NCBI GenBank assembly: GCA_963575745.1
Contig: CAUYUJ010000026.1
Location: forward strand, 248,001 to 312,000
Source of the DNA: Prorocentrum cordatum
Taxonomy: Eukaryota
Length of the DNA stretch: 64,000 bases
Direction of reading: 5' to 3'
Both the position numbers and the translations under genes were made by a program. The notes beneath the pieces are model-generated. The model was given only the letters and a program-made list of their open reading frames with translations, was not told where the DNA came from and did no database searches. Positions 1 to 21,888 of the stretch are shown here, in pieces. Position 1 is the first letter of the stretch. Each line of letters starts with the position of its first letter.

Positions 1-3000
1 ACATCCGAGACCAGCTCGACGGCCACGAGCACCACTGAGTCGAGCAGCACGACGTTGACCAGCACAAGCGGCTCGAGCACCACTGAGTCGAGCACCATCA
101 CATTGACAAGCACCAGTGAGTCGAGCAGCACGACGTTGACCAGCACAACCGCGTCTAGCACCACCACGCTGACGAGCACTACAGACACAAGCAGCACGAC
201 GAGAAGCAGCACTACATCGATGACAAGCACCACCGAGACAAGTAGCACAACTGTCTCCAGCAGTACTTCGCTGTCCAGCACCAGCGAGACAAGCAGCGGG
301 ACGGAGACCAGTAGCACCACCCCGACCAGCACGACCCTGAGTAGCACCACAGTGTCCAGCACCACGTCAGCGACAAGCAGCACAACACTGACCAGCACCA
401 CGGAGTCGAGCACCTCGTCGTTGACCAGCACCACCGAGACAAGCAGCACGGCGACAAGCACCAGTGAGTCGAGCAGCACGACATTGACCAGCACAACCGG
501 CTCGAGCACGACAGGGTCGAGCACCATAACATTGACCAGCACCACGGAGACTAGCAAGACGGCGACGAGCACCACCGAGTCGAGTAGCACGACGTTGACA
601 AGCACAACTGCGTCTAGCACTACGGCGACAAGCACCAGTGAGTCGAGCAGCACGACATTGACCAGCACAACCGGCTCGAGCACGACAGGGTCGAGCACCA
701 TAACATTGACCAGCACCACGGAGACTAGCAAGACGGCGACGAGCACCACCGAGTCGAGTAGCACGACGTTGACAAGCACAACTGCGTCTAGCACTACCAC
801 GCTGACGAGCACTACAGACACAAGCAGCACGACGAGAAGCAGCACGACAAGCACTACCGGCACCAGTAGCACAACATTGAGCAGCACCTCGGCGTCAAGC
901 AGCACAACGCTGAGCAGCACCACGGTATCTAGCAGCACTGGATCAAGCACCATGTCGTTGACCAGCACCACCGAGACAAGCAGCACGGCGACAAGCACCA
1001 GTGGGTCGAGCAGCACGACGCTGACCAGCACAACTGGGTCCAGCACGACAGAGTCGAGCACCATAACATTGACCAGCACCACCGAGACCAGCAAGACGGC
1101 CACGAGCACCTCTGAGTCGAGCAGCACGACGTTGACCAGCACAACCGCGTCTAGCACTACCACGCTGACGAGTACTACAGACACTAGCAGCACGACGAGA
1201 AGTAGCACGACAAGTTCTACCGGCACCAGTAGCACAACATTGAGCAGCACCTCTGCGTCAAGCAGCACAACGTTGAGCAGCACCACGGTATCTAGCAGCA
1301 CTGGATCGAGCACCACGTCGTTGACCAGCTCCACCGAGACTAGCAGGACGGCGACAAGCACCAGCGATTCGAGCAGCACGACGCTCACCAGCACAACCCG
1401 CTCGAGCACGACAGTTTCAAGCAGCACGTCATTGACGAGCACCACCGAGACTAGCACGACGGCGACAAGCACCAGCGAGTCGAGCAGCACGACGTTGACA
1501 AGTACAACCGCGTCTAGCACCACCACGCTGACGAGCACTACAGACACAAGCAGCACGACGAGAAGCAGCACTACATCGATGACAAGCACCACCGAGACAA
1601 GTAGCACAACTGTCTCCAGCAGTACTTCGCTGTCCAGCACCAGCGAGACAAGCAGCGGGACGGAGACCAGTAGCACCACCCCGACCAGCACGACCCTCAG
1701 TAGCACCACAGAGTCCAGCACCACGTCAGCGACAAGCAGCACGACCCTGACCAGCACTACGGAGTCGAGCACCACGTCAGGGCATACCACTACCGAGACA
1801 AGCAGTACTGCGTCGAGCAGCACGACATTCAGCAGCATCACGGGATCGAGCAGCACCACGTTGACCAGCACCACCGATTCGAGTAGCACGACGTTGACCA
1901 GCACAACCGCGTCCAGCACTACCACGCTGACGAGCACTACAGACACAAGCAGCACGACGAGAAGTAGCACGAGAAGCACTACTGGTACCAGTAGCACAAC
2001 ATTGAGCAGCACCTCTGCGTCAAGCAGCACAACGTTGAGCAGCACCACGGTATCTAGCAGCACTGGATCAAGCATCACGTCGGCGACGAGTACTACAATG
2101 ACAAGCCGCACGTTGACCAGCACCAGTGAGTCGAGCAGCACGACATTGACCAGCACAACTGGCTCCAGCACGACAGGGTCGAGCACCATAACATTGACGA
2201 GCACCACCGAGACTAGCAAGACGGCGACGAGCACCACGGAGTCGAGTAGCACGACGATGACCAGTACATCAGCGTCGAGCATTACAGTGTCTAGCAGCAC
2301 ATCGTTGACGAGCACTACTGAGACCAGCCAGACGTCGACAAGCACCAGCGATTCGAGCAGCATGACGTTGTCCAGCTCCACAGAGTCAGACACCAGATCG
2401 TTGACGAGCACTACTGGGACGAGCAGCACGTCGTTAAGTAGCACCACGAGGACGAGCAGCGCATCGCTGACCAGCAGTACTGGAACGTCGAGCACGACCC
2501 TAAGCAGCACCACGGAGTCGAGCACCACGTCAGTGCATACCACTACCGAGACAAGCAGCAGTGCGACGAGCAGCACGACGTTCAGCAGCATCACGGGATC
2601 GAGCAGCACCACGTTGACCAGCACCACCGAGACAAGTAGGACGGCGACAAGCATCAGTGGGTCGAGCAGCGCGACATTGACCAGCACAACTGGCTCCAGC
2701 ACGACAGGGTCTAGCAGCACAACATTGACCAGCACTACCGAGACTAGCCAGACGTCGACAAGCAGCAGCGATTCGAGCAGCACGACGCTGTCCAGTACAA
2801 CCGCGTCTAGCACCATCTCGCTGACAAGCACTACAAAGACAAGCAGCACGACGAGAAGTACCACTACGACAATGACAAGCACTACTGAGACAAGTAGCAG
2901 AACGATGACCATCAGCAGCACACTGACTGGTACGACCAAGACCAGTACTACGTCAGCAACAAGCAGCACCACCCTTCTCAGCACCACCGACTCTAGCACA

Positions 3001-3665
3001 ACAGTTTCGAGCAGCACATCGTTGACCAGCACCACTGGCACAAGCATGACGGCGACAAGCACTAGCGAGTCGAGCAGCACGACGTTAACCAGCAAGACAG
3101 CGTCGAGCAGCACATCATTGACCAGCAGTACCGAGACAAGCAGCAATACGTTCACCAGCAGCACAAGCTTTACCAGCGCGTCGTTAACAAGTACCACGGG
3201 AACCAGCACCAGCTCCCTCACGAGCAGTCGCACTATGTCCAGCACGACACTCAGCAGCACGACGCAATCCAGCACCAGCACAAGTGAAACGAGCACAACG
3301 ACGCTGAGCACTTCCACCGACTCGAGCACGTCGTCGCTCACCAGTACCACCACCAGCTCCATCACCGCCACGCTGACAAGCAGCACTACCTTGACCAGCA
3401 CGACTGAGACAAGCAGGTCAGGTACCAGCACCGTCTCGTTCACCAGCCATACAGAGACAAGCAGCACGACTCTCAGCAGCACATCTGGCTCAAGTAGTGT
3501 GACCCAGACCTCTTCGACAACCCTCACGAGCAGCACCGACACTAGCACAAATTCGTGGACAAGCTCGACGAGCGTAAGCGGCACAATCACCACGACAAGC
3601 TTGAGCTCCACGTCAACATCTTCGCTGATCAGCGCAACCGCGACAAGCAGCACATCCCTTTCAAG
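1..3665 (+). CDS. Large exon of a giant Ser/Thr-rich repeat protein (mucin/adhesin-like); 5' incomplete
   Basis: Frame 1 is open from base 1. About 1220 codons of ~11-aa S/T units (e.g. SSTTLTSTTET) with varied synonymous codons, so not a simple DNA repeat. S/T coding stops abruptly at TCAAG|GCCTT, a candidate GC donor at 3666 (phase 2). Confidence 0.85.
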
Positions 3666-4302
3666 GCCTTATTTTCGATTTTGTTCGCTTGCTGTTGTCC
3701 CACATTCGAAGTGCGGTTGCGCTCCCAAGTGTCTCCGCACGGGGAGTCCATGACAATCTCCTCGTCACGCTTGCTTCGTCGAGGTTTGAAGGCCCCTCGG
3801 GTTCTGAGCGCGTTGCAGTGAGACTCTGCTCACTGTGAGGCCATTGGCCCGTCAGAGAAGCACAACCTGAGAAGAAGGGGAGCTGTCAAGGGAGAGAGGG
3901 TGAATGAGACTGGGAGCAAGCGCCCCTCCGGCCCGTCACGACTAGAGGTTGCTCGTGAGTGCAGGCCGGCGCCGTTGCAGAACTGGGGCAGACATCACGG
4001 CGGGGAGAACAGCTTGGACGGACTCTTACTTGCCCCCCTCTCCTGAGCCTTCCCCTTCTTCCTCTTGGCATCGCTCAGACGTGTGCATTCTTCCTCGGTG
4101 AGCACTATCGAGGATCATCCTGGATCATCTCGCGAATCATACAAGCAGGAAGCCGAAGCATGCACAGTGAGTTAACGTCCGAGCGACTGCAAGTCCTTTG
4201 ACGCTTACACAATAGACATGATATCTCTTCCCTGGCTGCGTCCTGGACGAGTCCCGCCCTCTTCTTGCATTTCACGCTTGTCTATTCGAGGCGCTTGGGT
4301 GT

Positions 4303-9486: not shown

Positions 9487-9650
9487 GTTCATTTTTAATT
9501 ATTCGGAATCTCTTTGATTTCTTGGGGGGCCAATATCCTTTTTCTAATTGTTCTATCCTGAGCCTCTTCCTGGCCACTAAGGGGCCAGGAACAATCAGAA
9601 ACGAGCACGATTAGAAACGAGCACGGTTAGAAATGAACGACGTGTGGTCA
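9487..9650 (+). repeat. Dispersed ~165-bp repeat (second copy about 25815-25982) with a TTCCTGGCC..GGCCAGGAA hairpin
   Basis: The two copies align by eye (tgttctatcctg.gcctcttcctggccacta.ggggccaggaacaat..gaaacgagcac...aatgaacgacgtgt). Confidence 0.8.
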
Positions 9651-9892
9651 GGAGCAGTCTCAGCACCATGGCGCCGCCTCTGGCGGCGCCCACTGGGCGC
9701 CAGGGTTGAGGTGCTGAGACTGGCCCGGGCTTCCCGGGGGGCCTGCGGAGGCCAGCCGGATTGCCTGGGGGTGGGGCTATCTTTGCGCAGCCCGGAGCTT
9801 TTCCACTTCTGTGCCCGTCTGTCTCCGCGGGGCTCCACCTGGTACTTGGTTCGTCGCCTGCTGCGCGCGCGCGGCCAAAGAGCCCTCTGCAG

Positions 9893-9928
9893 CACAACGG
9901 CCACGAGCACCTCAGCCTCGAGCACGCG
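9893..9928 (+). CDS. Predicted micro-exon 2 of the S/T protein ((S)TTATSTSASST(R))
   Basis: ctgcAG|C acceptor and CG|GC donor. Completes the AG left by exon 1 as AGC (Ser); phase 2 in and out. Confidence 0.55.
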
Positions 9929-10896
9929 GCCTTGCGCTCGGCCGCAGCAGGAGGAACAGGTAGCAGCAGCAGCAGCCGTCCTGTGACAGTAATGCTGGTG
10001 TAAGCCAGACCATTTCGTGTCGTGGAAAAAATCTCAAGACGGATATGTGTGTATGTGTGTATGGGTGTGTTCAGCTATTTTCGGCCTTTGGGGGCCTTCG
10101 CCGGGCCCCAGGACCGTCAAGCTAGTCCCAGGAAATGGGTTAAGACCTCTTGAGGTCGACGTTGTTAGACAACCACACAGTCGTGGGAGGAAACTTGCGT
10201 ACGCGCAGGTTTTCGTTGAACAGGGCGTTCTCGAGATGCAGGGCTCGGGGAGCAGTGGGCTTGGGTGCAGTTGGCCTCAGGGGGGAGGGGGGGGGAGCGA
10301 TGCGTCGCCATGGAGCATATGGGCTCTGAACACTCATATAATAGGAGATCTAGGCCTAAGGTTTCTTCGCCGCCACGAGCCCTGGGACGGTCAAGAAACA
10401 GTCCTGTCTGGAGGCCGAACGCGACCAAAAATCTCGCATTGCATGTTTTACGTCAAGGTGGTGTTTTTTTCGGTCATGCCTCTGGCAGCCGTTCGGGATC
10501 ACTCGGGCCCCTCCCGCGAACGCTCCCGGCTCTTCGTGGTTGTTGGGTTGTTGAAAAGTCCCAGAGGTTGGCACGCCTCCAGTAGCCGACGCACATTGCA
10601 GAGGCGACGATATGGGCGAATAGCCCAGGGAGAGCAATACGTGTATCCAGGGGCGCCGTGCATTGCCCGCCCCTGGGTTATTCGCCCTTGTTGTCGCCGC
10701 CGAACATCGTGATCTTCCTCTCGGAGCCGTGGCGTTCTTCCTCGGCGCCAGGAGGCCTCCTGTGGCAGCGTCAGGGGGGGGGGCAGGCTCAGGGGTGGAC
10801 GCGTCGGCCCCACATCGCCCACTGGTCGCCGGTAGGGGCCCTGGTAGCCCAACACGCTCAGGATGGAGGGCTTTCCCGAAGGGCTCAGGCGACCCG

Positions 10897-10937
10897 TCCT
10901 CCTCCTCCTCCTCCTCCTCCTCCTCCTCCTCCTCCTC
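10897..10937 (+). repeat. (TCC)13TC tract: 5' target site of the LINE
   Basis: Abuts the SL. Its last 29 nt equal 17511-17539. Confidence 0.9.
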
Positions 10938-10989
10938 TCCGTAGCCATTTTGGCTCAAGCCATTTTGGCTCAAGCCGTTCTGGCCCAGG
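10938..10989 (+). other. Dinoflagellate spliced leader (22 nt) plus two relict 15-nt SL copies
   Basis: TCCGTAGCCATTTTGGCTCAAG (10938-10959) matches DCCGTAGCCATTTTGGCTCAAG. CCATTTTGGCTCAAG (10960-10974) is perfect. CCGTTCTGGCCCAGG (10975-10989) matches 11/15. Confidence 0.97.
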
Positions 10990-11084
10990 TGATTTGGGCT
11001 TGCTAGCGTATACTTCAGAACGGCACACTGCGCTAGCGGGTCAAGTGGCTCGTTCAGACTGTAGCATCGTTCGCGGCGTCTCCC

Positions 11085-12149
11085 ATGGGACCAAAGCAGC
11101 ATGAGATCATCGGTGCGAAATGTCTCTCGTGTGGTGCTGCGAAGTGCAACAAACCGTGGTACAAATGGTGTGCGAATTGTTGGGCCCCCATTCCGCACGT
11201 TTCCCCTGGCGCTCCTCGCGATCCTGGGGGTGTGTGGCAAAGTGGCCCAGCAGTTCCAGGCCCAAAAGGTTCTCACAAAGGTCAAGGACCCAAAGGTGGT
11301 GGACGTGGCAAAGGCGGGTTTGGGAGTGGCGGAGGCGGCGGCGTCGGGGGAGGACCTTGTGGTCGTGGAGGCGCTTTGGCTCATCCTGCGGACCCGTCGT
11401 CCCTCCTCGCCCAGCTTCAGCTGCTCATGGGTCAGCTCAAGGACGATTTCCCAGAGCGTGCAGCAGTGGCCAGCTCCATCGCGGCGTCGGCTTCAGCCAT
11501 CCGTTCCCAGCAGTCTGAAGCTCGTCCCCTTCGGCAGCAGGCATCTGAGGCTCAGCAGGCTCTTGACAAGAATGTTCGCGCCCTCAACTCGCTCGACTCC
11601 CAGATCGCAGACACCGAGTCGCGCATGGCGGAGCTCAAGGAGAAGAGGGCGGAGACCGCAACCCAGCAGGTACAGCTCAAGGCCAGGTACCTGGAGCTGG
11701 CGGCCAAGGTGGCCGACCTCCCGCCCCCGCCGCAGGCGGAGCTCCAGGGGCATTTGTCCAATTTCGACAGCGTGCTGGAGTCTGGCGACCTGGCCGCAAT
11801 TCGTGAGGGCTGGGCCAAACTCAAGACCAGCTGCCAATCCGTTGCCCAGAAGGAAGCCGCAGGCAGTGGAGCTGCTCCTGCTGCTTCTGACAGTGGTGGG
11901 GGGACGGGTGGTGAGGCGGGGGTGGAGACGGGTGTACCCACTCACTCTGATGAAGCAATGCCTCAGGTCGAGGCTGCGGACTCAGAAGCTTTCCAGAAAT
12001 TTTTACATGAATGGCAGCAGGCACAGTCGGAGGAAGTCTCGAGTGAGTCGAGGCAGCGCGTCTCGACTTTCATCGAGGCAGCGGCCAAGCGTGCCAAGAC
12101 GACGGCCGCCACTCCTACCGAGGCTCCTGCTCCTCGGACTCCTTCCTAG
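11085..12149 (+). CDS. LINE ORF1 (354 aa): RanBP2-like C4 zinc finger, G/K-rich linker, coiled coil
   Basis: First ATG after the SL. CLSC-x5-N-x6-CANC; KGxGxKG repeats; heptad-like A/Q/E/L segment. Confidence 0.85.
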   Translation: MGPKQHEIIGAKCLSCGAAKCNKPWYKWCANCWAPIPHVSPGAPRDPGGVWQSGPAVPGPKGSHKGQGPKGGGRGKGGFGSGGGGGVGGGPCGRGGALAHPADPSSLLAQLQLLMGQLKDDFPERAAVASSIAASASAIRSQQSEARPLRQQASEAQQALDKNVRALNSLDSQIADTESRMAELKEKRAETATQQVQLKARYLELAAKVADLPPPPQAELQGHLSNFDSVLESGDLAAIREGWAKLKTSCQSVAQKEAAGSGAAPAASDSGGGTGGEAGVETGVPTHSDEAMPQVEAADSEAFQKFLHEWQQAQSEEVSSESRQRVSTFIEAAAKRAKTTAATPTEAPAPRTPS

Positions 12150-13085
12150 CCCACCTCAGCCGGTGTCGGCTGGCTCGTCTCCCCTCCTTAGTCAGGATGT
12201 GGCCGCGGGAGTGCTTGTAGAAGGCTCTCTCCAGCCCCCTCCTCCGCCTGATTTGGATAATTTCGGGCTCTGTGTGCAGACTTGCAATGTTTCAGGATGG
12301 CAGTCACTCAAGAATAAGTGGCTGCCAATGACCACGGCACACGTTTTGTTAGTCCAAGAACATCACTTATGCTCAGATGAAGACATCTCCAAGGCGTCCG
12401 AATGGCTCTTTCGTCATGGGTGGAAGTCGTGTTGGGCGGCGGCCGCATGTGGGGAGGGCACTGGGTCTTCAGGAGGTGTTGCAGTTTTGGCTAGATCGTA
12501 TCTCGGGCTTCACACGTTGTCGTCGGGCTTCGTACTGTCCCCTCATCGTGCTGGAGCTTGTGTTATAGATATTCCAGGAGGATTTCAGGTCCTTGTCGGA
12601 TCGATCTACCTCCACGACGTCGAAGGTCTTTCTGAGCGCAACGTGGAGATCTTGTCGCGTCTCGGAGCTGGACTTTCACATTCTGATCTCCCTGTCGTTG
12701 CGGGAGGTGATTTCAACATGACTCCAGGTGAGTTTCAGAAGTCGCCTTTCGTTTCGGAGTTCAAAGGCCAGATGATCACCCCAACAGACGGAGGCTACAC
12801 GCTCCGCAGCACGGGGGGCCTCAAAGTATCTGATTTCTTTGTCGTCTCGGCAGGCATCGCGAAGGTTATCAGGCAGGTGAGTGTCAACTACAATTCCCCT
12901 CTCACCCCCCACTCCCCTGTGGATCTGGAGCTTTTCCCTTCGCCTGCTCAACTCAACGTTTTGGTTTTTCGGAAACCTCCCCCCCTTCCCCCCCAAAGGG
13001 CCATAGGGCCCACTCGGGAACCCCCATCTTGGGACCCTGTTCTCGACGTGCTGGAGGCGGCTCTGGTAGCTGCCAGGGCGGGGAG
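12150..13085 (+). CDS. LINE ORF2 part 1: apurinic-like (EEP) endonuclease; start codon uncertain
   Basis: TCNVSG (about 12280), LLVQEHH, SGGVAVL, SIYL, GGDFN (12703-12717), SDFFVVS, HSPV. Confidence 0.85.
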
Positions 13086-15305
13086 GGGGCGGAAACTCAA
13101 AGGCTGCTCAATCTCACCTACAAGTGGTGGGCCAACCTTGCGGAAGTGGAGGTGGCCAACGCCACTCAATCGGTGCTTCCGGTTTGGGGTGCGAGAGGCA
13201 AGGGTCCTCAGCTTATGAGGAAGCCTGTTTTCTCGAAGGACAAGGAACCTCTTAGGCACCCCTTTCTGTACTCCGTCAGGTGGCTGTATAATCGCATCTT
13301 GGACTGCAAGGTGTACGTTTCGTCTAATTCCCAAAAGGCCAAGAGTGGTGGAGTTGATTTTGCGAGGGCCCTGAGGTCCTACATTTTTCACCCTCCCCCT
13401 TTCGTGGTCGTGAATCTGGGTGCCCATAAGGAGCTGCTTATCACCTTGCAGTCCATGATCACCCGTGCTGATTTGGACTCGAGCGGAGAGCTCGAGCAGG
13501 ACGTTCTCGATCTGTCTCTCTCGTTCTCCGACGTGGTCGCGCAGGCAGAAGCCAGCGCTAGGGACCGCAGTTTAGCTTCCTGGCGTAGTTGGCTGAGAGA
13601 GAACATCGATCAGGGGGCCAAGCGAGCTCACATGGTCACTTCTGAACCCAAGCCCTGGAAACCTACTTCCACTCTCTCGTCCAACGGCTGTGTGGTCAGT
13701 GACCCCAGGTCCCTTCTCGAGGCTGAACGCAACAAGTTAATTCATTTATGGCGCGCTTTTGACTCCCCGCGGGAGTTGGGACCTATTGCCGATTTCTTTC
13801 CTGCTCCTGAGCTCCCCCCTTTGGACCCCAACGAGTTGGTCCGCATTTCGAGGAGCTACAAGATGTATTCGGCGGTGGGCGTGGACGGTTTCCACATGAA
13901 ACATTTCAGTATGATTTCCCTTCCTGGGGTCACGGCGCTGTGTAGGATCCTGCAGGTCATGGAAATCTCCAGCATGTTGCCATTCCAGCTTGATGCCACA
14001 GTGTTGGCGCTCCTGGGTAAACCTACTGGAGGGTTCCGCCCTATCGGGATTTTCATGGGTCCTTACCGCATCTGGGGGAAAGCGCGGCGGTGCCTTGCCG
14101 AGAGCTGGGAGGGGTCGCACGCTCGTCCCTACTTTGCGGCGGGCAAGTACCAGGGGGCCTCAGACGTTGTATGGCGGCAAAGCGTCCGCAGCGAGAGTGG
14201 GGCAACCCACTCCTTACATGCGGCTACCCTCCTGCAGGACATGTTTAAATACTACGAGCTCATTGATCTCGAGCGACTCCTCGGTCGTTGTATAAGGCTG
14301 GGTTTCCCTATTGCCATGGCCAAGTTGGCTGTGCGGGCCTACAGGGCCCCGAGGTTTCTTTCCTTGGGTGGCTGCATCGACGGTCCGTGGTACGCTTCTT
14401 CTGGAATCATAGCGGGGTGTTCGTTGGCCACGACCCTGATCAGGGTTAACGCGGTGGAGTCGCTCGATACTGTTAGGTTACGGCAGGGTGCTCAACTGGC
14501 GCTCTACATCGACGATTCTGGCCTCAGTGCTGTCGGCTGTTTCAATTTTGTTGTGGACGCCATCACGGAAGGCGCGCCCCAGCTCCACGCTGCCATCGTT
14601 GATGGCATTGGTGCGCAGGTGGCGGCTGACAAATCCAGCCTGATTTGTTCCTCGGCCAAGCTTGGCAGGGCCATTCAGGCCAAACTGGGAGTTGAGCTCA
14701 CGGGTCCCATTACTTCCAGTGCTGTTAACCTTGGGATGGACGACACGGTGGGGAAGAGTTCTCGGACCCAGGGTCGTAACAAAAAGCTTGTGATTAGGAG
14801 ACGTCTTTTCATCAAACGCACTGGCCGAGTGGCTAAACTTCGTAAGACCCTTGGTTCCAGGAGAACTTTGCGAGTTTTCACTGCAGGACCGCTCCCTGGC
14901 TTACTGTATGGCAGCGAGGTTAGAGGGGTTACTGACTACGAGCTGATGCTCATCCGCCGTGCGGCGGCCAGGACGATAAAGCCTTCAGCTGGCCAACGCT
15001 CCCTGACGGTGCTTTCCCACCTCGAAGGCGACCCTGCTTGGGTTGGGGCCGTTTCCCCGATCTTGCGGTGGCACAAGGAAGTTTGGTGCTCTCAGGTCAG
15101 GGCCTTTGAAGGCTCGATTCCTTTCAGGGAGCTGAGGCAAGCGTGGGAAGGTGTTTTTCTTCAGGATTCCCCCTCGTGGAGGGCGGTAGGTGGTCCTGTG
15201 GCAGCCATGCGCAAGTCCTTGGAGAGGATCTCGTGGACGATGAGGGACTTCGCCACTTTCGTCACTGACAAGGGGATCGAGCTTTCCATGACCCTCATGT
15301 CCCCC
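13086..15305 (+). CDS. LINE ORF2 part 2: reverse transcriptase (after a frameshift in the G-run at about 13080-13089)
   Basis: AVGVDG, LLGKPTGGFRPIG, QDMFKYYE, GIIAGCSLA, catalytic YIDD (14505-14516), ADKS. Confidence 0.9.
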
Positions 15306-17139
15306 CAGTGTCAAGCACCATCTCCGCGGGGCAGTCTTCAGGGTTCTCGAGTGGGAAGCTGGTGCTAAATGGGATGTGCCTCATCGTCTGTGCTTTGACG
15401 TGGTGAAGTTCGAGCTCCGCCGCAAAAAATACTCAGCTCTCGAGAAAGGGTGTATTCGGGCTGTTGCTACGGACGCAGTGTGGACTCGTGCTAAAGCATT
15501 GCGATTGGGTTACCAGATAGACCCCACGTGCCACCTCTGCGGCTCAGCCCCCGACACGCTCCACCACCGACTTTGGGTCTGCAGGTGCCAGGAGGTTGTC
15601 GAGCTCCGTTCCAGTCTTGTTACTCCCGAGCTTGTTTGCAAGGCCCTGGAGGAGCCCAATTCGATTCGGTCTTGTTTTGGAGCTTTTGCCCACCCTGGGG
15701 ATTATTTTCCTGGTCCCGCGGCCGAGTCGTCTGGTACTTTCTGGGCCAGGGAGGACCTTCCCCAGGATGTAGGCCAATTTCCTTTCACAAACAATATTTT
15801 CACAGACGGTAGCGCATGTAAGCATATAGTTCGCGAGCTCAGCAGGGCAGGCTGGTGTTTTGTGGCTGTGGACGACCAGGGGGACCTCTTGGGAAAGCTC
15901 TACGGTCCCGTCCCCCCGTGCTACCCCCAGACTGCCCCTGCGGGCGAGTTTGCTGCTATTTGTCAAGCCATACTTTTCTCAGGAGGACCTTCGGATTTTT
16001 ATACAGATGCTCAGCTGGTCAAAGATCACTTCGGTCGCCCTCAGATTGACCAGCTTTCACCTAAGCGATGCTACAGCGGGTTCTCCCTCTCCCTCCTTTC
16101 AGATTTCTGGAAGGTCCGCTCTTTGAACAAAGTGAAAGCGCATCGCTCTTTGGAAGAGTGGACCGACAATCATGACAAGATGTGCCGTTTTGGGAACCAC
16201 CACGCTGATGTTGGAGCTAAAAGTGCTTCTGCGGGGGAAGGGTACCTGGGGCACCCACAGCCGTCGGAGGAGGACAGGTGCAGGCTTGATCTCGACATTA
16301 AGTTTTCTCGGGCTGTGGCATCACTGTCTGCTAAGCTGATGCCTTTGTGGCCCAAATTAGACCTCCAAGACGTTGTGTGGATTCAGCCGCCTAAAGACCC
16401 CCCCCAGGTGGTTTCCTCTGTGCTTTGCGATTGGCAGCCCATCCAGATTGTCGAGCTTGGTTCCGTCTCGGGCTTTTGGAAGTGTTCGAGGTGTGCAAAA
16501 GTCAGCCGTCTTTCCACCCATGGTCCCCCGCCTCCTTCCTCGAAGTGCTCCCCTGTTCGAGGGATGGAGGCGCAGGTTTTGGAGGCGCGGGGACACAGGT
16601 GTTTGACGCTGGCCTGCTCAGACAATTCGACTTTGGTGATCTGCACCAAGTGCTATTCTTATTCGTCTCATGGTCGTGCGTCGGGCCTTGCGGAAGTTTG
16701 CAGCGGCCCGACCAGATCAAAGAAATACAACAGTTGGCACCCGATTTGTAAAGGCCTCCATCCTAAGCGTCCAGGAGTCTCGGTTGAGAGAGGGCCGTGG
16801 GCGCAGAAGGGAGGAGGCCTTCAGGTAGCCGATGCAGGTGCCGCCGCGGCGCAGGAGCACGGCTCTCCGCGCCCCGCCACCGCCGCCGAGGACCGAGGGG
16901 ACGGGGTGGAGCGGGGAGCGGGGGGGGGAGCGACTGTGTCCGAGCACGCTGGTTTGCAGGACTGGGAGGCGGACGAAGAAGCCTCTCGTTTTCTTTTTCA
17001 GGGCCCTCCCTCTCCTCCTCCTCCTCCCCCCCTTCTTGGTTTGCCCTGTGCCCCGGCCTCTTCTCGCTGTGAGGCCAGGGAGGCGTCGTTTATTTCGGTG
17101 CTCGCGCACCGTGATGAGGGCGACTCTAGTTCGGACTAA
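15306..17139 (+). CDS. LINE ORF2 part 3: CCHC zinc finger, RNase H, Cys/His-rich C-terminus (after a frameshift at C6, 15301-15306)
   Basis: CHLCG...HHRLWVC; FTDGS, GEFAA, YTDAQ, KVKAH, GNHHADVGAK (D-E-D-D set intact); CSRC and CTKC clusters. Confidence 0.9.
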
Positions 17140-17510
17140 CGCCTGGGGGAGAAGCAGCGGGCCACGGGGTATCCTCCAGCCAGCTGGAGATGACCCTGTG
17201 GCCCGCTGCTTTTCCTCGCTTTTCAGGTGTTAGTATTTGCTGGCTTGTCCAGCCGTCCTGCCCTAATTGTCCGCGCGGCGCAGGCTTGGGCATTGCACCC
17301 TCAGGGTCAGCCCTCGCCCCCGCGTCTTTCGCCTGGCTCTGCCGCTCCTGCTTTCTCCGCGCAGATCTGGGCAGCTGGCCCGACAGCGCGGCGGGAAATG
17401 CTATCTTCTCCCCGTGATGAGGGCGACTCTAGTTGCTGGCTTGACCAGCCGTCCTGCCCTAATTGTCTGGGCTGGCTCTCTACCTTGATGTTGATGTCAA
17501 AAAAAAAAAA

Positions 17511-17539
17511 TCCTCCTCCTCCTCCTCCTCCTCCTCCTC
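17511..17539 (+). repeat. (TCC)9TC: 3' target-site duplication
   Basis: Directly follows the poly(A) and ends in the same TC register as the 5' tract. Confidence 0.85.
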
Positions 17540-17724
17540 GGGTCGCCTACGGCCCCGGGGGAAGTCGTGCAGCTCAGGGCCATGCGCATTCGCCACCAGG
17601 CGCCCATCGACGATCCATCGGCGATGCCCTGCCGATGTCAGTGCGACGTGTCCCCCCCGCCTGAGCCAGACCCCCGACGCGAAGCCTGTCCAGAACGCGG
17701 GCCCCCAGAGGTCTCGACCCATAC

Positions 17725-18472
17725 TTAAGTCGGGCGTCTCCCCCTACAGGAGGGACATTCAAACATTGTCAACAAATAATATGGGGACGATCTTTTTCCC
17801 TACCTAGGCTCTGCCTAGAAGGGTTCTTACTCTCTTAGCTTATAGGGGCCGGGCATTGCATGCCCGGGCGTTGCAACATCCCCTGACGGTTCCCCCCAGT
17901 CCCCTGAGAGCTTTAGCTTTAGCTTTAGCTTTAGCTTTACTTAGCTTTAGCTTAGCTTTAGCTTAGCTGTAGCTTAGCTTTAGCTTAGCGTTTCGCTTAG
18001 CGTTTCGCTTAGCTTTTCGCTTAGCGTTTAGCTTAGCTTTAGCTTAGCTTTAGCTTAGCTTGAGCTTAGCTTGAGCTTAGCTGTAGCTTAGCTTTAGCTT
18101 AGCTTTAGCTTAGCTTTAGCTTAGCTTTAGCTTAGCTGTAGCTTAGCTTTAGCTTAGCTGTTGCTCAGCTTTAGCTTAGCTTTAGCTTAGCTTTAGCTTA
18201 GCTTTAGCTTAGCTTTATCTTAGCTTTAGCTTAGCTTTATCTTAGCTTTAGCTTAGCTTTAGCTTAGCTGTGGCTTAGCTTTAGCTTAGCTTTAGCTTAT
18301 CTTTAGCTTAGCGTTACTGTTACTACTAATGCTGCTTTCCTAGGGGTTCCAACTCCTAGGTAGGGTCGCACTGGGATAATCTAGTAATTTTGAAGATTGT
18401 GGGAGTATTTGTTGGGAGTATTTTGAATTCTTTCGCACAAAATCCCCCTGTAGGTGGCCAGGCCCGGCCTAA
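17725..18472. mobile_element. MITE-like element with ~30-bp imperfect TIRs, containing a nested 11-bp-IR unit (17798-18365)
   Basis: Left ttaagtcgggcgtctccccctacaggaggga versus reverse complement of right ttaggccgggcctggccacctacaggggga. Inner perfect IR CCCTACCTAGG/CCTAGGTAGGG. The same TIR family occurs at 56154 and 63732. Confidence 0.6.
17909..18312. repeat. Satellite of TTTAGC/TTAGC units (mostly the 11-bp TTTAGCTTAGC)
   Basis: Direct reading, about 400 bp. Confidence 0.95.
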
Positions 18473-19989
18473 ACCCATACCCTGGGGCCGTCCTGAGTTT
18501 TTCGGACGGTCCCGGGGCCTGGCGAAAAACGCCCCGAGAGGTGGAAAATAACAGAAATGACGTCCGTCGTGCGTTTTCCACGGCGCGAGGGTCGATACCT
18601 CCCCCCCCTCCTGAGCCATACCCCTCCCCCCTGCTTTCCCCCTCGGCCCCTGGGGTTGTCGGGCCCGGACGATAGGGTAGGACAGCAAAATCTGCTGCAT
18701 GCACTTGGTTTCCGCCCCGCCGCCGGGCCCATTCCTCCGGTGCAGGAGCGCCTCTCGGCGCCAGGAAGCTTCTCTGCCCTACCCTTGGCTATCCTACCCT
18801 TTTGCCACCCCCGAGGTTGGCATGCAGCCCTCCTCCAGCCGCGCGCTCGGGTGGCGCCCCCCCCTCATCGGCGCAGGAGCGCCGTCGTGGGCGATGCCTT
18901 GGGGGCGGCCCCGCGGGAATCCTTCGGGCGGGGTCCTTGGGGCCCCAGGGTGCCGTGGGCACCGGCGATCTGTTCGTAGGTGCGCACTGCGCCCCGAGAG
19001 CCCCTCGCGCGATGAAAAAACCGCGACGGGATGCTTTTGGTATGTTTGGCTTCTGGGAGAGGGTCCCCACTGTGCCTCGGCACTGCAAAGAAGGCACAGC
19101 ATGAGAAACCGGTCCCGGGGAAGGGCTCCAGACCCCTGGGGGTCGACGTGATGAACAAATCATGACGTGGGGGGGGCTTTGAGCCACCAGGTGCAGGAAC
19201 GCTTCACCCCAACTGCACCGACGAAGCTCGTGCACTTCGCCATGGATATGTAAGGCGTGATGAAGGTTGCGGCTGGCAGGGGGTCGCCTTGGTTAGGGCG
19301 AACTTCGGGGGGCTCCCGAGGGCCCCGACCCGGCGGCTCCCGAGGCCCGCCCCCCCCCCGAGGCCCCCGAGAGGGGTCACACGACATGCTCGCCAATGCG
19401 GGTGTGTGACTGCCGCGGGCTGGCAGCGCTATAGAATGGACGCGGCCATGAGCAGCACTGCTACCATCGGGAACGCGTGCGGTTCGCCTTCGCCAGAACT
19501 CGGGCTCGCCGACGCTTCTTTTGACGGCCCGTCCTGAATTTTGGCGGTCCAGCTCTCGTGAGATGCTTGCAGAGGGAACTCGCGTCAAATTTCAGACGGG
19601 GGTTCGTCATTTTCTTGACTGCCCCGTCATGCCAACTCGGGTCGCCCGAATCCGAGTCTTACATTGAACGGTTTGAATAAGGAAAGGAACACTTATTTTT
19701 CAAAAGGGGCTCGGTCGTTCCTTAGGCTTGCATGCGTTATTGATCGTTCTTGATGCGTTTGGTATCGTCCCTTATGCGTTGTTCCTTGGGATAAAAGGGG
19801 CTTCGTTCCGTATTCATCGTTCTGTAGGTCAGGCCGATGATTGTACGTCTCCCCGATCTAAGATCTAGGGGCACATCTTTCGTCGCCTCTGCGCTTCGTG
19901 AGGTGCCCCCGGGCCCCAGGGGCTCTGCGGACCCTTGGGGAGATGAGAGCCTCTCCTGGGGCAGCCGCTGGCGGGCCGATGCTGATGCT

Positions 19990-20400
19990 TGACAGTGCCC
20001 TGACGAGCTGACTCCGTGAAAATATTTCGGCGGGGGGTGGGTGGGCAGTTTCCTGCCTCTGGTGGCATTCAATTGACTGGGACAGGCAGACAATCGCCTG
20101 GTATGAAAAACCGGTCCTTTGAAAAGGGACCTTGATCTTTTGGGAGCCCATGTGTGAAACAGACACGGAGTCGTATGTTTGGGGAGGCACTCCAAATGAG
20201 AAGTTGGCTTGCCAGCAGGTTCCCCATAGAACTTTCTTTATCCCCCGATGACTTGGTGGACCTTGCAGAAGCCTTGGACTGGGGTACCTGTATACGGACG
20301 CCCATAAAGTTTGACGTCAAACGTGCCCCTAGACTAGAGTTCTTATCGCAAGATCTAGCATTGCATGCGTCTGCTGTAACACATTGGGCATCGGTAGTCA
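19990..20400 (+). pseudogene. Possible decayed LINE ORF2 fragment (pre-RT region)
   Basis: S*LRENISAG resembles SWLRENIDQG of the intact LINE. Downstream LDWGTCIR..F..RAP.LE loosely resembles RT region 0. Confidence 0.25.
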
Positions 20401-21138
20401 CGGGCTGACCATCGGAGATGGGGGCCAGTGGCCAGCCTCCCAGCTCACGCGAAGGGGACTCCTCGATGCCGGAATTGGCCGCAGATGTGGGAGAATACGA
20501 CGACGATGAGGACGACGGCAGCTTCTGTGTCGTTGTGCCCGCGGCCCGCTGCTGGGGGATGCAGAGGATTCAAGATTGTGAAGAGGAGAAGGGTGGGAGG
20601 GGGAGGATGATGAAAACAGTGAGGAGGAGGAGGAGGAAGAGGAGGAGGAGGTGGAGGCCCGCTGCTAGGGGGGGGCAGGTGAGACAGCATGGTGAGGAGG
20701 AGAAGGATGAGCGGGAGGAGCGGGAGAAGCCCGAGTAGGAGTACAGTGAGGAGGAGGATGGGGGGGATGGGGGGGAGAAGTCGCCCCTCCTGCTGCACTC
20801 CAGCGTCTGTCGGGACGGCGCTCGCCGACGACCGGCACACGGGGACCTGGCTGGGGAGCCGCCTCCAAGAGGGGCGGGGCGGCCGTCGGCGGTGCAGCCG
20901 TCGGCGGTTGCCTGAGGTGTCCCCGACCCCAGGTGCCCCAGGCTGTTCTCGCCATGCTGGAGCCTCTGGGGGCCTCCTTGTGAGTCGTGGGGGCACCTCG
21001 GGCCAGGGACGCGCGATTCTGGATGTGGATCCCTGCGCTTCAGGCTTCGGGCCTTGTTCAGAGAAGGCGCGCTTCGCCCCTAGACGGCTGCAGACACAAC
21101 ATCAAGTCGAAGGGTGAAGCGATGATTGACATTCGCCG

Positions 21139-21279
21139 AGCGCGTTCCACTACTCGCAAAGTGCCTACTCGCAAACGTCCCCCAAACCATACGTCTTCCT
21201 TTGTGTAATCTATCGTAAAGTCCCTGAAGCGGATCCATGCCATTTGCGAGTAGCTACTTTGCGAGTGGTGAAACGCGCT
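21139..21279. repeat. 37-bp inverted repeat (33/37 match) with 67-bp spacer; MITE-like
   Basis: Arms at 21139-21175 and 21243-21279, each carrying two ACTCGCAAA motifs. Confidence 0.85.
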
Positions 21280-21549
21280 TGTCCAGACATGATCATGGAA
21301 ATGCATGCAATCCTTGGGGCACATTGGGCCAGGAGTACTCTTGGTAGCGCCCGGCAGCTGAGCGCCCGCCCGCCATCGAGGCGCGGGGCCAGTTGTCGCC
21401 CCCTCAGGCGCGCTGCCTCCAGCGGGAAACCAGCGGGCGGGCGCGCTGGAGCAGAAACTTGACTGCTGCCCTCCGCCCTGGGCGCGCCCGCGTCTACCCT
21501 TGGGCCTCTTGCCTTTCTGGGGCCGCTGCGCTCATCAGGGGGAGTATGG

Positions 21550-21880
21550 CGGAGGGGGCGCGGACGAGAAGGAGACGGAGGAGGAGAGGGAGGAGGAGAG
21601 GATGAGAAGGACAAGGAAAGAGAGGGAAGAGAAGGAGTAGGAGGAGGAGGAGAAGGAGGAGAAGGAGGAGGAGGAGGAGGAGGAGGGCGGAAAGGTAGAC
21701 GATGCGAGAGGCGAGAAGGAGGGAGTGATGATGGTGGTGAGGGGGAGGAGGTGGACGAGGCAAGGACGAGTAGGAGGATGGTAGGAGGAGGGGGATGAAT
21801 AGGACAGGGGTGAGGAGAGGAGGAGGGGAGGAGGGGGCGGAAGAGGCAGAGTACGCGGAGGGGGGCAGGAGGAGCAGTGC
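21550..21880. repeat. GA-rich (GGA)n low-complexity tract (others at 20580-20780, 26895-27015, 42050-42220)
   Basis: Direct reading. Confidence 0.85.
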
Positions 21881-21888
21881 CCCCCAAG

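What the first reader, a model, noticed from the sequence alone, without database searches (positions are those of the whole stretch)
9929..21888. Candidate promoter-less retrotransposon cycle: ride a host intron, get released by trans-splicing
Seen: the LINE lies in sense orientation within predicted intron 2, has only about 95 nt between the SL array and ORF1, and brings its own AG acceptors (10943-44, 10958-59, 10973-74) directly behind a 41-nt pure pyrimidine (TCC)n target. Established analogy: NeSL-type elements exploit host SL transcription and trans-splicing. Inference: host pre-mRNA supplies transcription, the integrated SL supplies a reusable acceptor that regenerates a complete capped 5' end, and the target may supply a pyrimidine tract. 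This would solve the LINE 5'-end problem without an internal promoter, and the same RT could drive SL-mRNA retrogene formation.
Basis: inference. Interest (0 to 1): 0.82.

Follow-up and report, generated by a model that had tools for sequence, protein, structure and literature searches.

The report
Spliced-leader-headed LINE in a dinoflagellate
A nearly intact jumping gene (LINE) in a dinoflagellate genome begins with the host's spliced-leader tag plus older copies of that tag, which shows that it is copied from host-processed messenger RNA and probably needs no promoter of its own.

Summary
The sequence features are real. A 6,573-bp non-LTR retrotransposon lies at 10938-17510 on the + strand. 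[quoted passage not shown] A perfect 15-nt relic and a decayed relic follow, then 96 nt of leader, ORF1 and an endonuclease-RT ORF2. It ends in A12 and has (TCC)n on both sides.

This is the known "recycled cDNA" signature of dinoflagellate retrogenes, here on the retrotransposon itself. A relic cut at the leader's internal AG requires that an earlier copy was transcribed from DNA upstream of the element and trans-spliced again.

I found a second, unrelated full-length LINE elsewhere (L148/L155) with the same layout: (AG)n, DinoSL, ORF1, ORF2, A6, (GA)n.

Three parts of the interpretation are not supported:
- No host gene or intron could be shown.
- Expression of this copy was not tested, and its ORF2 has two frameshifts.
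- The pyrimidine-tract idea is not general, because the second element sits behind a purine tract.
- The NeSL analogy is wrong in detail.

No paper that I searched states this mechanism for LINEs. I call it a new variant of a known kind, of moderate interest.

The parts
10897..10937 (+). Upstream half of the target microsatellite, (TCC)13TC, 41 nt
   Evidence: TRF: 13.7 copies, 100% matches; script
10938..10959 (+). Complete 22-nt DinoSL encoded in DNA (first base T); AG at 10943-44 is the leader's internal acceptor, AG at 10958-59 its 3' end
   Evidence: Sequence. The consensus DCCGTAGCCATTTTGGCTCAAG is quoted in PMC7245778 and PMC5585692 (passages read)
10960..10974 (+). Relic leader 1, CCATTTTGGCTCAAG, 15 of 15 identical, cut exactly behind the internal AG
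10975..10988 (+). Relic leader 2, decayed (three transitions and a 1-nt deletion)
   Evidence: Fixed-register test: 298 of 200,000 random sequences score as well
10989..11084 (+). 5' leader of 96 nt; 10989-11006 may be a still older relic (weak)
   Evidence: Candidate fourth relic: 861 of 20,000 random sequences in fixed register score as well, so it is marginal. Fold not unusual, z -1.05
11085..12149 (+). ORF1, 354 aa, intact: N-terminal Cys4 zinc-ribbon-like motif, Gly-rich stretch, coiled-coil-like region
   Evidence: No Pfam family above cut-off. ORF1 of L148 has a RanBP2-type zinc finger, E 1.6e-7
12151..13086 (+). ORF2, first part: AP-type endonuclease (reading frame 1)
   Evidence: Pfam Exo_endo_phos E 2.1e-7, 31.4 bits against a cut-off of 24.5; tblastn with P0002 and P0003
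13089..15308 (+). ORF2, second part: reverse transcriptase with YIDD; the frame changes at a G-run near 13086-13090
   Evidence: tblastn at 42% identity to P0002. RVT_1 is only E 0.25 here but passes in relative P0003. The two D residues of YIDD are invariant in both alignments
15310..17139 (+). ORF2, third part: zf-RVT-like, RNase H-like (DGS...AGE...TD...KAH...AD, read by eye) and Cys-rich tail; the frame changes at a C-run near 15301-15309
   Evidence: tblastn. zf-RVT E 0.0011, below cut-off. Distant relatives P0006 and P0014 carry PF00075
17140..17498 (+). 3' UTR with a long hairpin (about 17140-17230) and two copies of a small hairpin, GCTGG-N5-CCAGC
   Evidence: Fold -171.1 kcal/mol, z -3.83, 0 of 100 shuffles as good; repeats D9 and D12; only sub-threshold miRNA-like Rfam hits
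17499..17510 (+). Poly(A) tail, 12 A
17511..17539 (+). Downstream half of the target microsatellite, (TCC)9TC, 29 nt; a possible target-site duplication that cannot be delimited inside a repeat
   Evidence: TRF: 9.7 copies, 100% matches

Best explanation
The element at 10938-17510 is a young non-LTR retrotransposon (LINE) with an AP-type endonuclease, in a dinoflagellate genome. Its transposition intermediate is an ordinary host-processed mRNA: capped by trans-splicing of the 22-nt spliced leader, and polyadenylated.

Shown: the whole leader was reverse-transcribed and integrated together with the element, between the two halves of a (TCC)n microsatellite.

Inferred from the relic units, by the logic already accepted for dinoflagellate retrogenes: earlier copies of this lineage already began with a DNA-encoded leader. 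They were transcribed from flanking DNA upstream of the element. They were trans-spliced at the AG inside, or at the end of, that encoded leader, which gave a fresh complete 5' end, and were then copied again. This happened at least twice and probably three times.

Inferred: the family therefore needs no internal promoter. Any insertion lying in sense within a transcribed stretch can be released and capped by the host trans-splicing machinery.

Not shown: that this copy lies in a gene or an intron, that it is expressed, or that (TCC)n helps splicing.
For: 1. One inserted unit. (TCC)n abuts the first base of the leader on one side and the A12 tail on the other. Leader array, ORFs and tail therefore went in together.
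2. Relic structure. There is a full 22-nt leader, then a 15-nt relic starting exactly behind the leader's internal AG, then a more decayed relic. This is the pattern described for recycled cDNAs (PMC7245778, PMC6050394 and PMC12014239, passages read).
3. Upstream start. If transcription began at the element's first base, the outron in front of the AG at 10943-44 would be 7 nt. That is too short for a splice branch site (general knowledge), so the start must lie upstream.
4. Second case. L148/L155 is a different family (RT about 25% identical). It reads (AGAGAGAC)n/(AG)n, DinoSL at 117-137, a 93-nt leader, ORF1 with a RanBP2 zinc finger, ORF2 with Exo_endo_phos and RVT_1 (2,536 aa open), A6, (GA)n.
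5. No ribozyme. [quoted passage not shown]
6. Youth. ORF1 is intact. ORF2 has no in-frame stop and only two frameshifts, both at homopolymer runs.
7. Literature hint. Song et al. 2017 report the GO class 'RNA-dependent DNA replication' enriched among genes with DinoSL relicts (PMC5585692, passages). That fits RT-encoding elements carrying leaders.
Against: - Only one copy is in the window and only one further full-length example elsewhere, so n = 2.
- 0 of 16 relatives fetched from metagenomes contain a leader. Most of those contigs lack the element's 5' end. L006 has about 1.6 kb upstream of its endonuclease and no leader, but it is a distant relative (25% identity) of unknown host.
- L148 carries no relic. 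It shows trans-splicing of the template RNA but does not by itself prove an upstream start.
- The two identical 15-nt units could also arise by replication slippage (TRF sees a 15-nt tandem repeat at 10943-10984). The number of cycles is therefore uncertain.
- ORF2 of this copy is broken by two frameshifts (real mutations or assembly errors at homopolymers), so this copy may be dead.
- No host gene, transcript or transcription start was observed.
- Song et al. propose that the leader's TTT(G) motif itself acts as a promoter (PMC6050394).
Confidence: 0.7

Rival explanations
1. A promoter lies inside the element or inside the leader. The DNA-encoded leader (its TTTT/TTTG motif) or the 5' UTR drives transcription. 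The leader at the 5' end is then only the trace of a single past trans-splicing event, and the extra units arose by DNA slippage.
For: Song et al. suggest that DinoSL relicts 50-100 nt upstream of start codons act as promoters (PMC6050394 and PMC5585692, passages). The array here lies 96-147 nt upstream of the ORF1 ATG. TRF reads the array as a 15-nt tandem repeat. L148 has a single leader and no relic.
Against: The relic boundary falls exactly behind the leader's internal AG. The third unit is more decayed than the second. Successive splicing cycles predict both features; a recent slippage does not. A start downstream of the leader would lose leader units rather than keep a complete one at the first base.
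Confidence: 0.15
2. Chimera by template switching. [quoted passage not shown]
For: Such chimeras are known for mammalian L1 (preprint 10.1101/2025.02.02.635956, seen in the search listing and abstract only). Spliced-leader RNA is abundant.
Against: The junctions lie exactly at the exon's 3' end and at its internal AG. No leader-intron sequence is present. In the loci that look like leader RNA genes, the leader is followed by GTAC. The same exact junction occurs in L148.
Confidence: 0.03
3. NeSL/SLACS-type site-specific insertion into a spliced-leader RNA gene, or chance insertion next to an older retrogene's leader array.
For: A leader sequence sits next to a LINE.
Against: The flanks on both sides are (TCC)n, not a leader gene. 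The endonuclease is AP-type and N-terminal. An insertion next to an older array would not put (TCC)n behind the poly(A) tail.
Confidence: 0.02

Closest known systems
[quoted passage not shown]
   Same: A DNA-encoded full leader followed by relics cut at the internal AG, with older relics more decayed. The implication is re-transcription, renewed trans-splicing and renewed reverse transcription.
   Different: Here the recycled RNA is the retrotransposon's own bicistronic mRNA, with a clear poly(A) tail and target microsatellite on both sides. In the passages I read, retrotransposons appear only as a possible enzyme source. One preprint (10.1101/783902) even calls retroposition and retrotransposition independent processes.
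Co-transcribed LINEs whose 5' end is released by an HDV-like ribozyme (L1Tc: PMC3185411 and PMC3383444, abstracts seen in the listing; R2 and RTE recalled)
   Same: No dependence on an own promoter at each new site. The 5' end is cut out of a longer host-driven transcript.
   Different: The release here would be done by the host spliceosome, which also supplies the cap. No ribozyme was found. L1Tc in addition has the Pr77 internal promoter and gives unspliced transcripts (PMC1874656, abstract).
NeSL-1, SLACS, CZAR and CRE (LINEs inserted in spliced-leader RNA genes; recalled)
   Same: A LINE tied to the spliced-leader system of its host.
   Different: Those elements insert into the leader gene, use its promoter and carry a restriction-like endonuclease. 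This element inserts elsewhere, has an AP-type endonuclease and receives the leader by trans-splicing.
Spliced-leader trans-splicing of transposon transcripts in Hydra (preprint 10.1101/2024.03.13.584568, passages)
   Same: About 30% of transposon Iso-Seq reads, including full-length CR1 LINE transcripts, carry a host spliced leader.
   Different: That is an RNA-level observation. The passages I read do not report leaders or relic arrays fixed in the genomic copies.
Microsatellite-targeting LINEs (recalled, for example elements specific for (TAA)n or (TC)n)
   Same: Insertion inside a simple repeat, with the repeat on both sides.
   Different: Sequence specificity is unknown here. The two leader-headed LINEs sit in different repeats, (TCC)n and (AG)n.

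Membership tests
Non-LTR retrotransposon (LINE) with AP-type endonuclease | AP-type endonuclease domain N-terminal to the reverse transcriptase | tested here: met
   Exo_endo_phos E 2.1e-7, above the cut-off. The order endonuclease, RT, C-terminal part follows from tblastn with P0002 and P0003.
Non-LTR retrotransposon (LINE) with AP-type endonuclease | Reverse transcriptase with the catalytic YxDD motif | tested here: met
   YIDD is present and its two D residues are invariant in alignments A1 and A2. RVT_1 is weak in this copy (E 0.25) but passes in relatives. 4,205 relatives at E <= 1e-3.
Non-LTR retrotransposon (LINE) with AP-type endonuclease | 3' poly(A) tail and target-site duplication, no terminal repeats | tested here: inconclusive
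   A12 tail is present. The same microsatellite lies on both sides, but a duplication cannot be delimited inside a repeat.
Dinoflagellate recycled retrocopy (relic-leader class) | DNA-encoded DinoSL at the 5' end, followed by relics that start behind the internal AG | tested here: met
NeSL/SLACS/CZAR clade | Insertion within a spliced-leader RNA gene | tested here: not met
   Both flanks are (TCC)n and no leader-intron sequence is present.
NeSL/SLACS/CZAR clade | Restriction-like endonuclease C-terminal to the RT, no AP-type endonuclease | tested here: not met
   An AP-type endonuclease is found N-terminally. That this feature defines the clade is recalled, not checked here.
Ribozyme-processed co-transcribed LINEs (R2, L1Tc, RTE type) | HDV-like self-cleaving ribozyme at the element's 5' end | tested here: not met
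   Rfam scan of 9500-18500 at E <= 1 gave no ribozyme family among its 11 weak matches.
Promoter-less, read-through-dependent retrotransposon (functional class) | No transcription start inside the element; precursor RNA spans the 5' flank | not testable with these tools
No genome is held.

The most novel reading that the evidence does not exclude
Dinoflagellate LINEs as a class have given up promoters. The host's spliced-leader trans-splicing makes, caps and regenerates their 5' end. The DNA-encoded leader works as a portable acceptor cassette that lets any sense-oriented copy in transcribed DNA be mobilised again. These same elements, integrating by target-primed reverse transcription at microsatellites, would be the long-sought enzyme source of the very many leader-tagged retrogenes of dinoflagellates.
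Probability: 0.35. Interest if true: 0.75.

Novelty: new variant of a known kind. Interest (0 to 1): 0.58.

Why it matters
Full-length LINE copies usually have to carry an internal promoter, because a promoter upstream of the element is not copied with it. Known ways around this are internal promoters and self-cleaving ribozymes. Here the host's trans-splicing would do the job and add the cap as well.

The finding also bears on an open question in dinoflagellate genomics: which reverse transcriptase makes the roughly 20% of genes that are leader-tagged retrogenes. Papers I read call this unknown (PMC5585692) or favour LTR elements (PMC6050394). LINE copies with a leader head, a poly(A) tail and microsatellite flanks make a LINE source directly testable.

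Tried and rejected
Reads and genome:
- No whole genome is held, so no copy census or orientation test was possible.
- The look-up of sequencing runs gave 14 holders, with no RNA holder listed.
There is therefore no read evidence of any kind.

Relatives:
- The metagenome scan gave 16 relatives, 0 with a leader, nearly all cut before their 5' end.
- The scan of viral contigs for relatives gave none.
- The exact pattern of leader plus relic gave 0 hits in viral contigs.
- Of 138 loci fetched around exact leader matches, only 1 holds a LINE of this superfamily by tblastn at E <= 1e-5.
- LINE fragments in G002 are all cut at contig starts.
- Cluster look-up gave no names. PDB sequence search with P0003 gave 0 hits.

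Host gene:
- 0 of 94 and 0 of 104 open frames outside the LINE reach a Pfam cut-off.
- Codon-phase GC periodicity does not separate even the LINE ORFs from background (0.156 against 0.147).
- Skew profiles were uninformative.

Other:
- A fourth relic at 10989-11006 is marginal.
- Poly(A) ends of the leader-headed non-LINE retrocopies were not within their contigs.
- Earlier findings of the scan gave nothing relevant.

Rejected readings: template-switch chimera, insertion into a leader gene, and chance adjacency to an older leader array (see rival explanations).
Full report
WHAT IS THERE

The window is dinoflagellate DNA. The exact spliced leader (DinoSL) is encoded at 10938-10959. The consensus DCCGTAGCCATTTTGGCTCAAG is quoted in PMC7245778 and PMC5585692.

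Directly behind a perfect (TCC)13TC tract (10897-10937; TRF 100% matches) lie three leader units:
- TCCGTAGCCATTTTGGCTCAAG, all 22 positions.
- CCATTTTGGCTCAAG at 10960-10974.
- CCGTTCTGGCCCAG at 10975-10988.

The 15-nt motif occurs only here in the 64 kb: 2 matches against 0.13 expected, and 0 of 100 shuffles gave 2 or more. The decayed third unit is significant only because of its position. 298 of 200,000 random sequences in a fixed register score as well, while 254 of 2,000 shuffles reach its score as a free local match. A possible fourth unit at 10989-11006 is marginal (861 of 20,000).

THE ELEMENT

After 96 nt comes ORF1 (11085-12149, 354 aa, intact). ORF2 follows in three frame pieces:
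- AP-type endonuclease, 12151-13086. Pfam Exo_endo_phos E 2.1e-7.
- Reverse transcriptase with YIDD, 13089-15308.
- A C-terminal part, 15310-17139, with a weak zf-RVT hit and an RNase H-like motif read by eye.

The best relatives are single proteins of 1,557 and 1,645 aa that carry RVT_1 and Exo_endo_phos, at 41-42% identity. tblastn places the two frame changes at 13086/13089 and 15308/15310. Both lie at G or C runs. They may be real mutations or assembly errors. A metagenomic relative, L002, has all three parts in one frame. There are no in-frame stops.

The 3' UTR (17140-17498) folds into a long hairpin (z -3.83). It ends in A12 (17499-17510), followed at once by (TCC)9TC (17511-17539). The element is thus 10938-17510, 6,573 bp. 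The leader array was integrated as part of it.

The family is large but divergent: 4,205 proteins at E <= 1e-3, the best about 42% identical. There is one copy in the window.

WHAT IT MEANS

A complete leader at the first base of a cDNA-derived copy means that the template RNA was a mature, trans-spliced mRNA.

Relics that begin exactly behind the leader's internal AG are the accepted mark of repeated cycles: integration, transcription, renewed trans-splicing at that AG, and reverse transcription (PMC7245778, PMC6050394 and PMC12014239, passages).

For a LINE this has a further consequence. The acceptor AG lies 6-7 nt inside the element. The outron, with its branch site, must therefore come from DNA upstream of the element. 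The parent copies were read through from their flanks and did not start at an internal promoter. This step is inference. It rests on general splicing knowledge and on the relics being products of splicing rather than of DNA slippage, which the sequence alone cannot exclude for the two identical units (TRF period 15).

Trans-splicing at each of the three AGs would have a different outcome:
- At 10943-44 it would add one unit.
- At 10958-59 it would regenerate the same head.
- At 10973-74 it would remove one unit.

No ribozyme or other Rfam family lies at the 5' end.

A SECOND CASE

Exact 21-nt leader matches in two public collections gave 119 stretches in viral contigs and 20 in prokaryote-labelled genome contigs. 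138 loci were held in all. tblastn with the LINE proteins hit 1 of the 138, L148.

That contig (G001:C12, 9,096 nt, 70% GC) is filed under a bacterial MAG. I infer that it is dinoflagellate contamination. It reads as follows:
- (AGAGAGAC)n/(AG)n at its start.
- CCGTAGCCATTTTGGCTCAAG at 117-137.
- A 93-nt leader.
- ORF1 at 231-1343 with a RanBP2-type zinc finger (E 1.6e-7).
- ORF2 from 1358, open for 2,536 aa, with Exo_endo_phos and RVT_1.
- ...GGTAAAAAA and then (GA)n to the contig end.

Its RT is only about 25% identical to the window's, so it is an independent family with the same head, tail and kind of target. It has no relic.

RESULTS THAT DO NOT HELP OR THAT CUT AGAINST

- 0 of 16 relatives from the metagenome scan hold a leader. 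Nearly all are cut before their 5' end. The distant relative L006 has 1.6 kb upstream of its endonuclease and no leader.
- The pyrimidine-tract idea is not general, because L148 sits behind a purine-rich repeat.
- Among about 15 retrocopy-like leader sites in GC-rich contigs with at least 30 nt of upstream sequence, I judged 4 by eye to abut a microsatellite: L136, L139, L148 and L150. L139 is otherwise bacterial and doubtful. Perfect microsatellites cover 1.1% of the window (703 of 64,000 bases).
- This hints that leader-tagged retrocopies and LINEs share a kind of target. It is thin evidence: no 3' ends were available, and contigs tend to break at repeats.

THE HOST-INTRON CLAIM

I could not find a host gene. 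0 of 198 open frames outside the LINE reach a Pfam cut-off. Periodicity and skew were uninformative. The proposed splice sites are short motifs that I did not test for specificity. The claim is neither shown nor excluded.

COMPARISON WITH WHAT IS KNOWN

The kind of event, recycling of leader-bearing RNA, is known for host genes.

Song et al. 2017 found 'RNA-dependent DNA replication' enriched among genes with leader relicts. This suggests that such elements were in their set, but they read it as activation of the machinery. [quoted passage not shown] The 2018 mini-review favoured LTR elements as the enzyme source.

In Hydra, about 30% of transposon transcripts, including CR1 LINEs, carry a leader.

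Seven full-text searches, with passages read in eleven papers, turned up no statement that dinoflagellate LINE copies begin with the leader or depend on it. Supplements were not read and may bear on this.

The element is not NeSL-like: it has an AP-type endonuclease and its target is not a leader gene. Functionally it parallels the ribozyme-processed, co-transcribed LINEs (R2, L1Tc), with the host spliceosome in place of the ribozyme.

VERDICT

- The core mechanism is well supported for the lineage, though not for this copy.
- The host-intron and pyrimidine-tract parts are unsupported.
- It is a new variant of a known kind, of moderate interest.

Noticed in passing
L017-L135 (IMG/VR contigs, mostly labelled GVMAG, AT-rich): Giant-virus MAG contigs carry the exact DinoSL in front of very many genes. 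121 of 129 unique AT-rich leader sites have AAAA[AT]TGA starting 48-50 nt upstream. That motif resembles a mimivirus-type early promoter (recalled). In 125 of 129 sites the base before CCGTAG is A. This looks like viruses of dinoflagellates that encode the host leader at the 5' end of their own mRNAs. Two literature searches (listings only) showed no paper describing it.
   Followed up: partly
L136 1-59, L139 1-52, L150 1-55: Leader-headed ORFs that are not LINE-like (no Pfam family) abut microsatellites: a GT-rich repeat, (TCA)10 and (GACA)6. In this they resemble the two LINEs. The rest of L139 looks bacterial, so that contig may be chimeric.
   Followed up: partly
window 10887-10896 and 17540-17549: The (TCC)n target is bracketed by a 10-nt inverted repeat, AGGCGACCCG ... 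CGGGTCGCCT (read). The pre-insertion site would have been a microsatellite in the loop of a small palindrome. Its significance is unknown.
   Followed up: no
window 1-3750: A long tandem array has unit lengths that are multiples of three (15, 33, 63, 111, 363 nt). It has open frames of 1,250 and 1,222 aa on the two strands and very strong codon-phase GC periodicity. It may be a repetitive coding gene or a satellite.
   Followed up: no
window 17909-18316: An 11-nt satellite, (AGCTTTAGCTT), about 37 copies at 91% matches, lies 400 nt downstream of the LINE.
   Followed up: no
L141, L142, L147, L153: In contigs filed under bacterial MAGs the leader is followed by GTAC... and a T-rich stretch. They look like spliced-leader RNA genes of dinoflagellates present as contamination.
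   Followed up: no
L063 around 4573 (-) and L100 around 301 (+): Two GC-rich contigs share the context ...GGGGG, leader, then N2-GTCCCC... They may belong to one repeated leader-bearing element family.
   Followed up: no
window 12147-12200; L148 1343-1358: In both LINEs ORF2 lies in a different frame from ORF1 and has no ATG near its start. ORF2 translation must therefore be unconventional, by frameshift or re-initiation.
   Followed up: no
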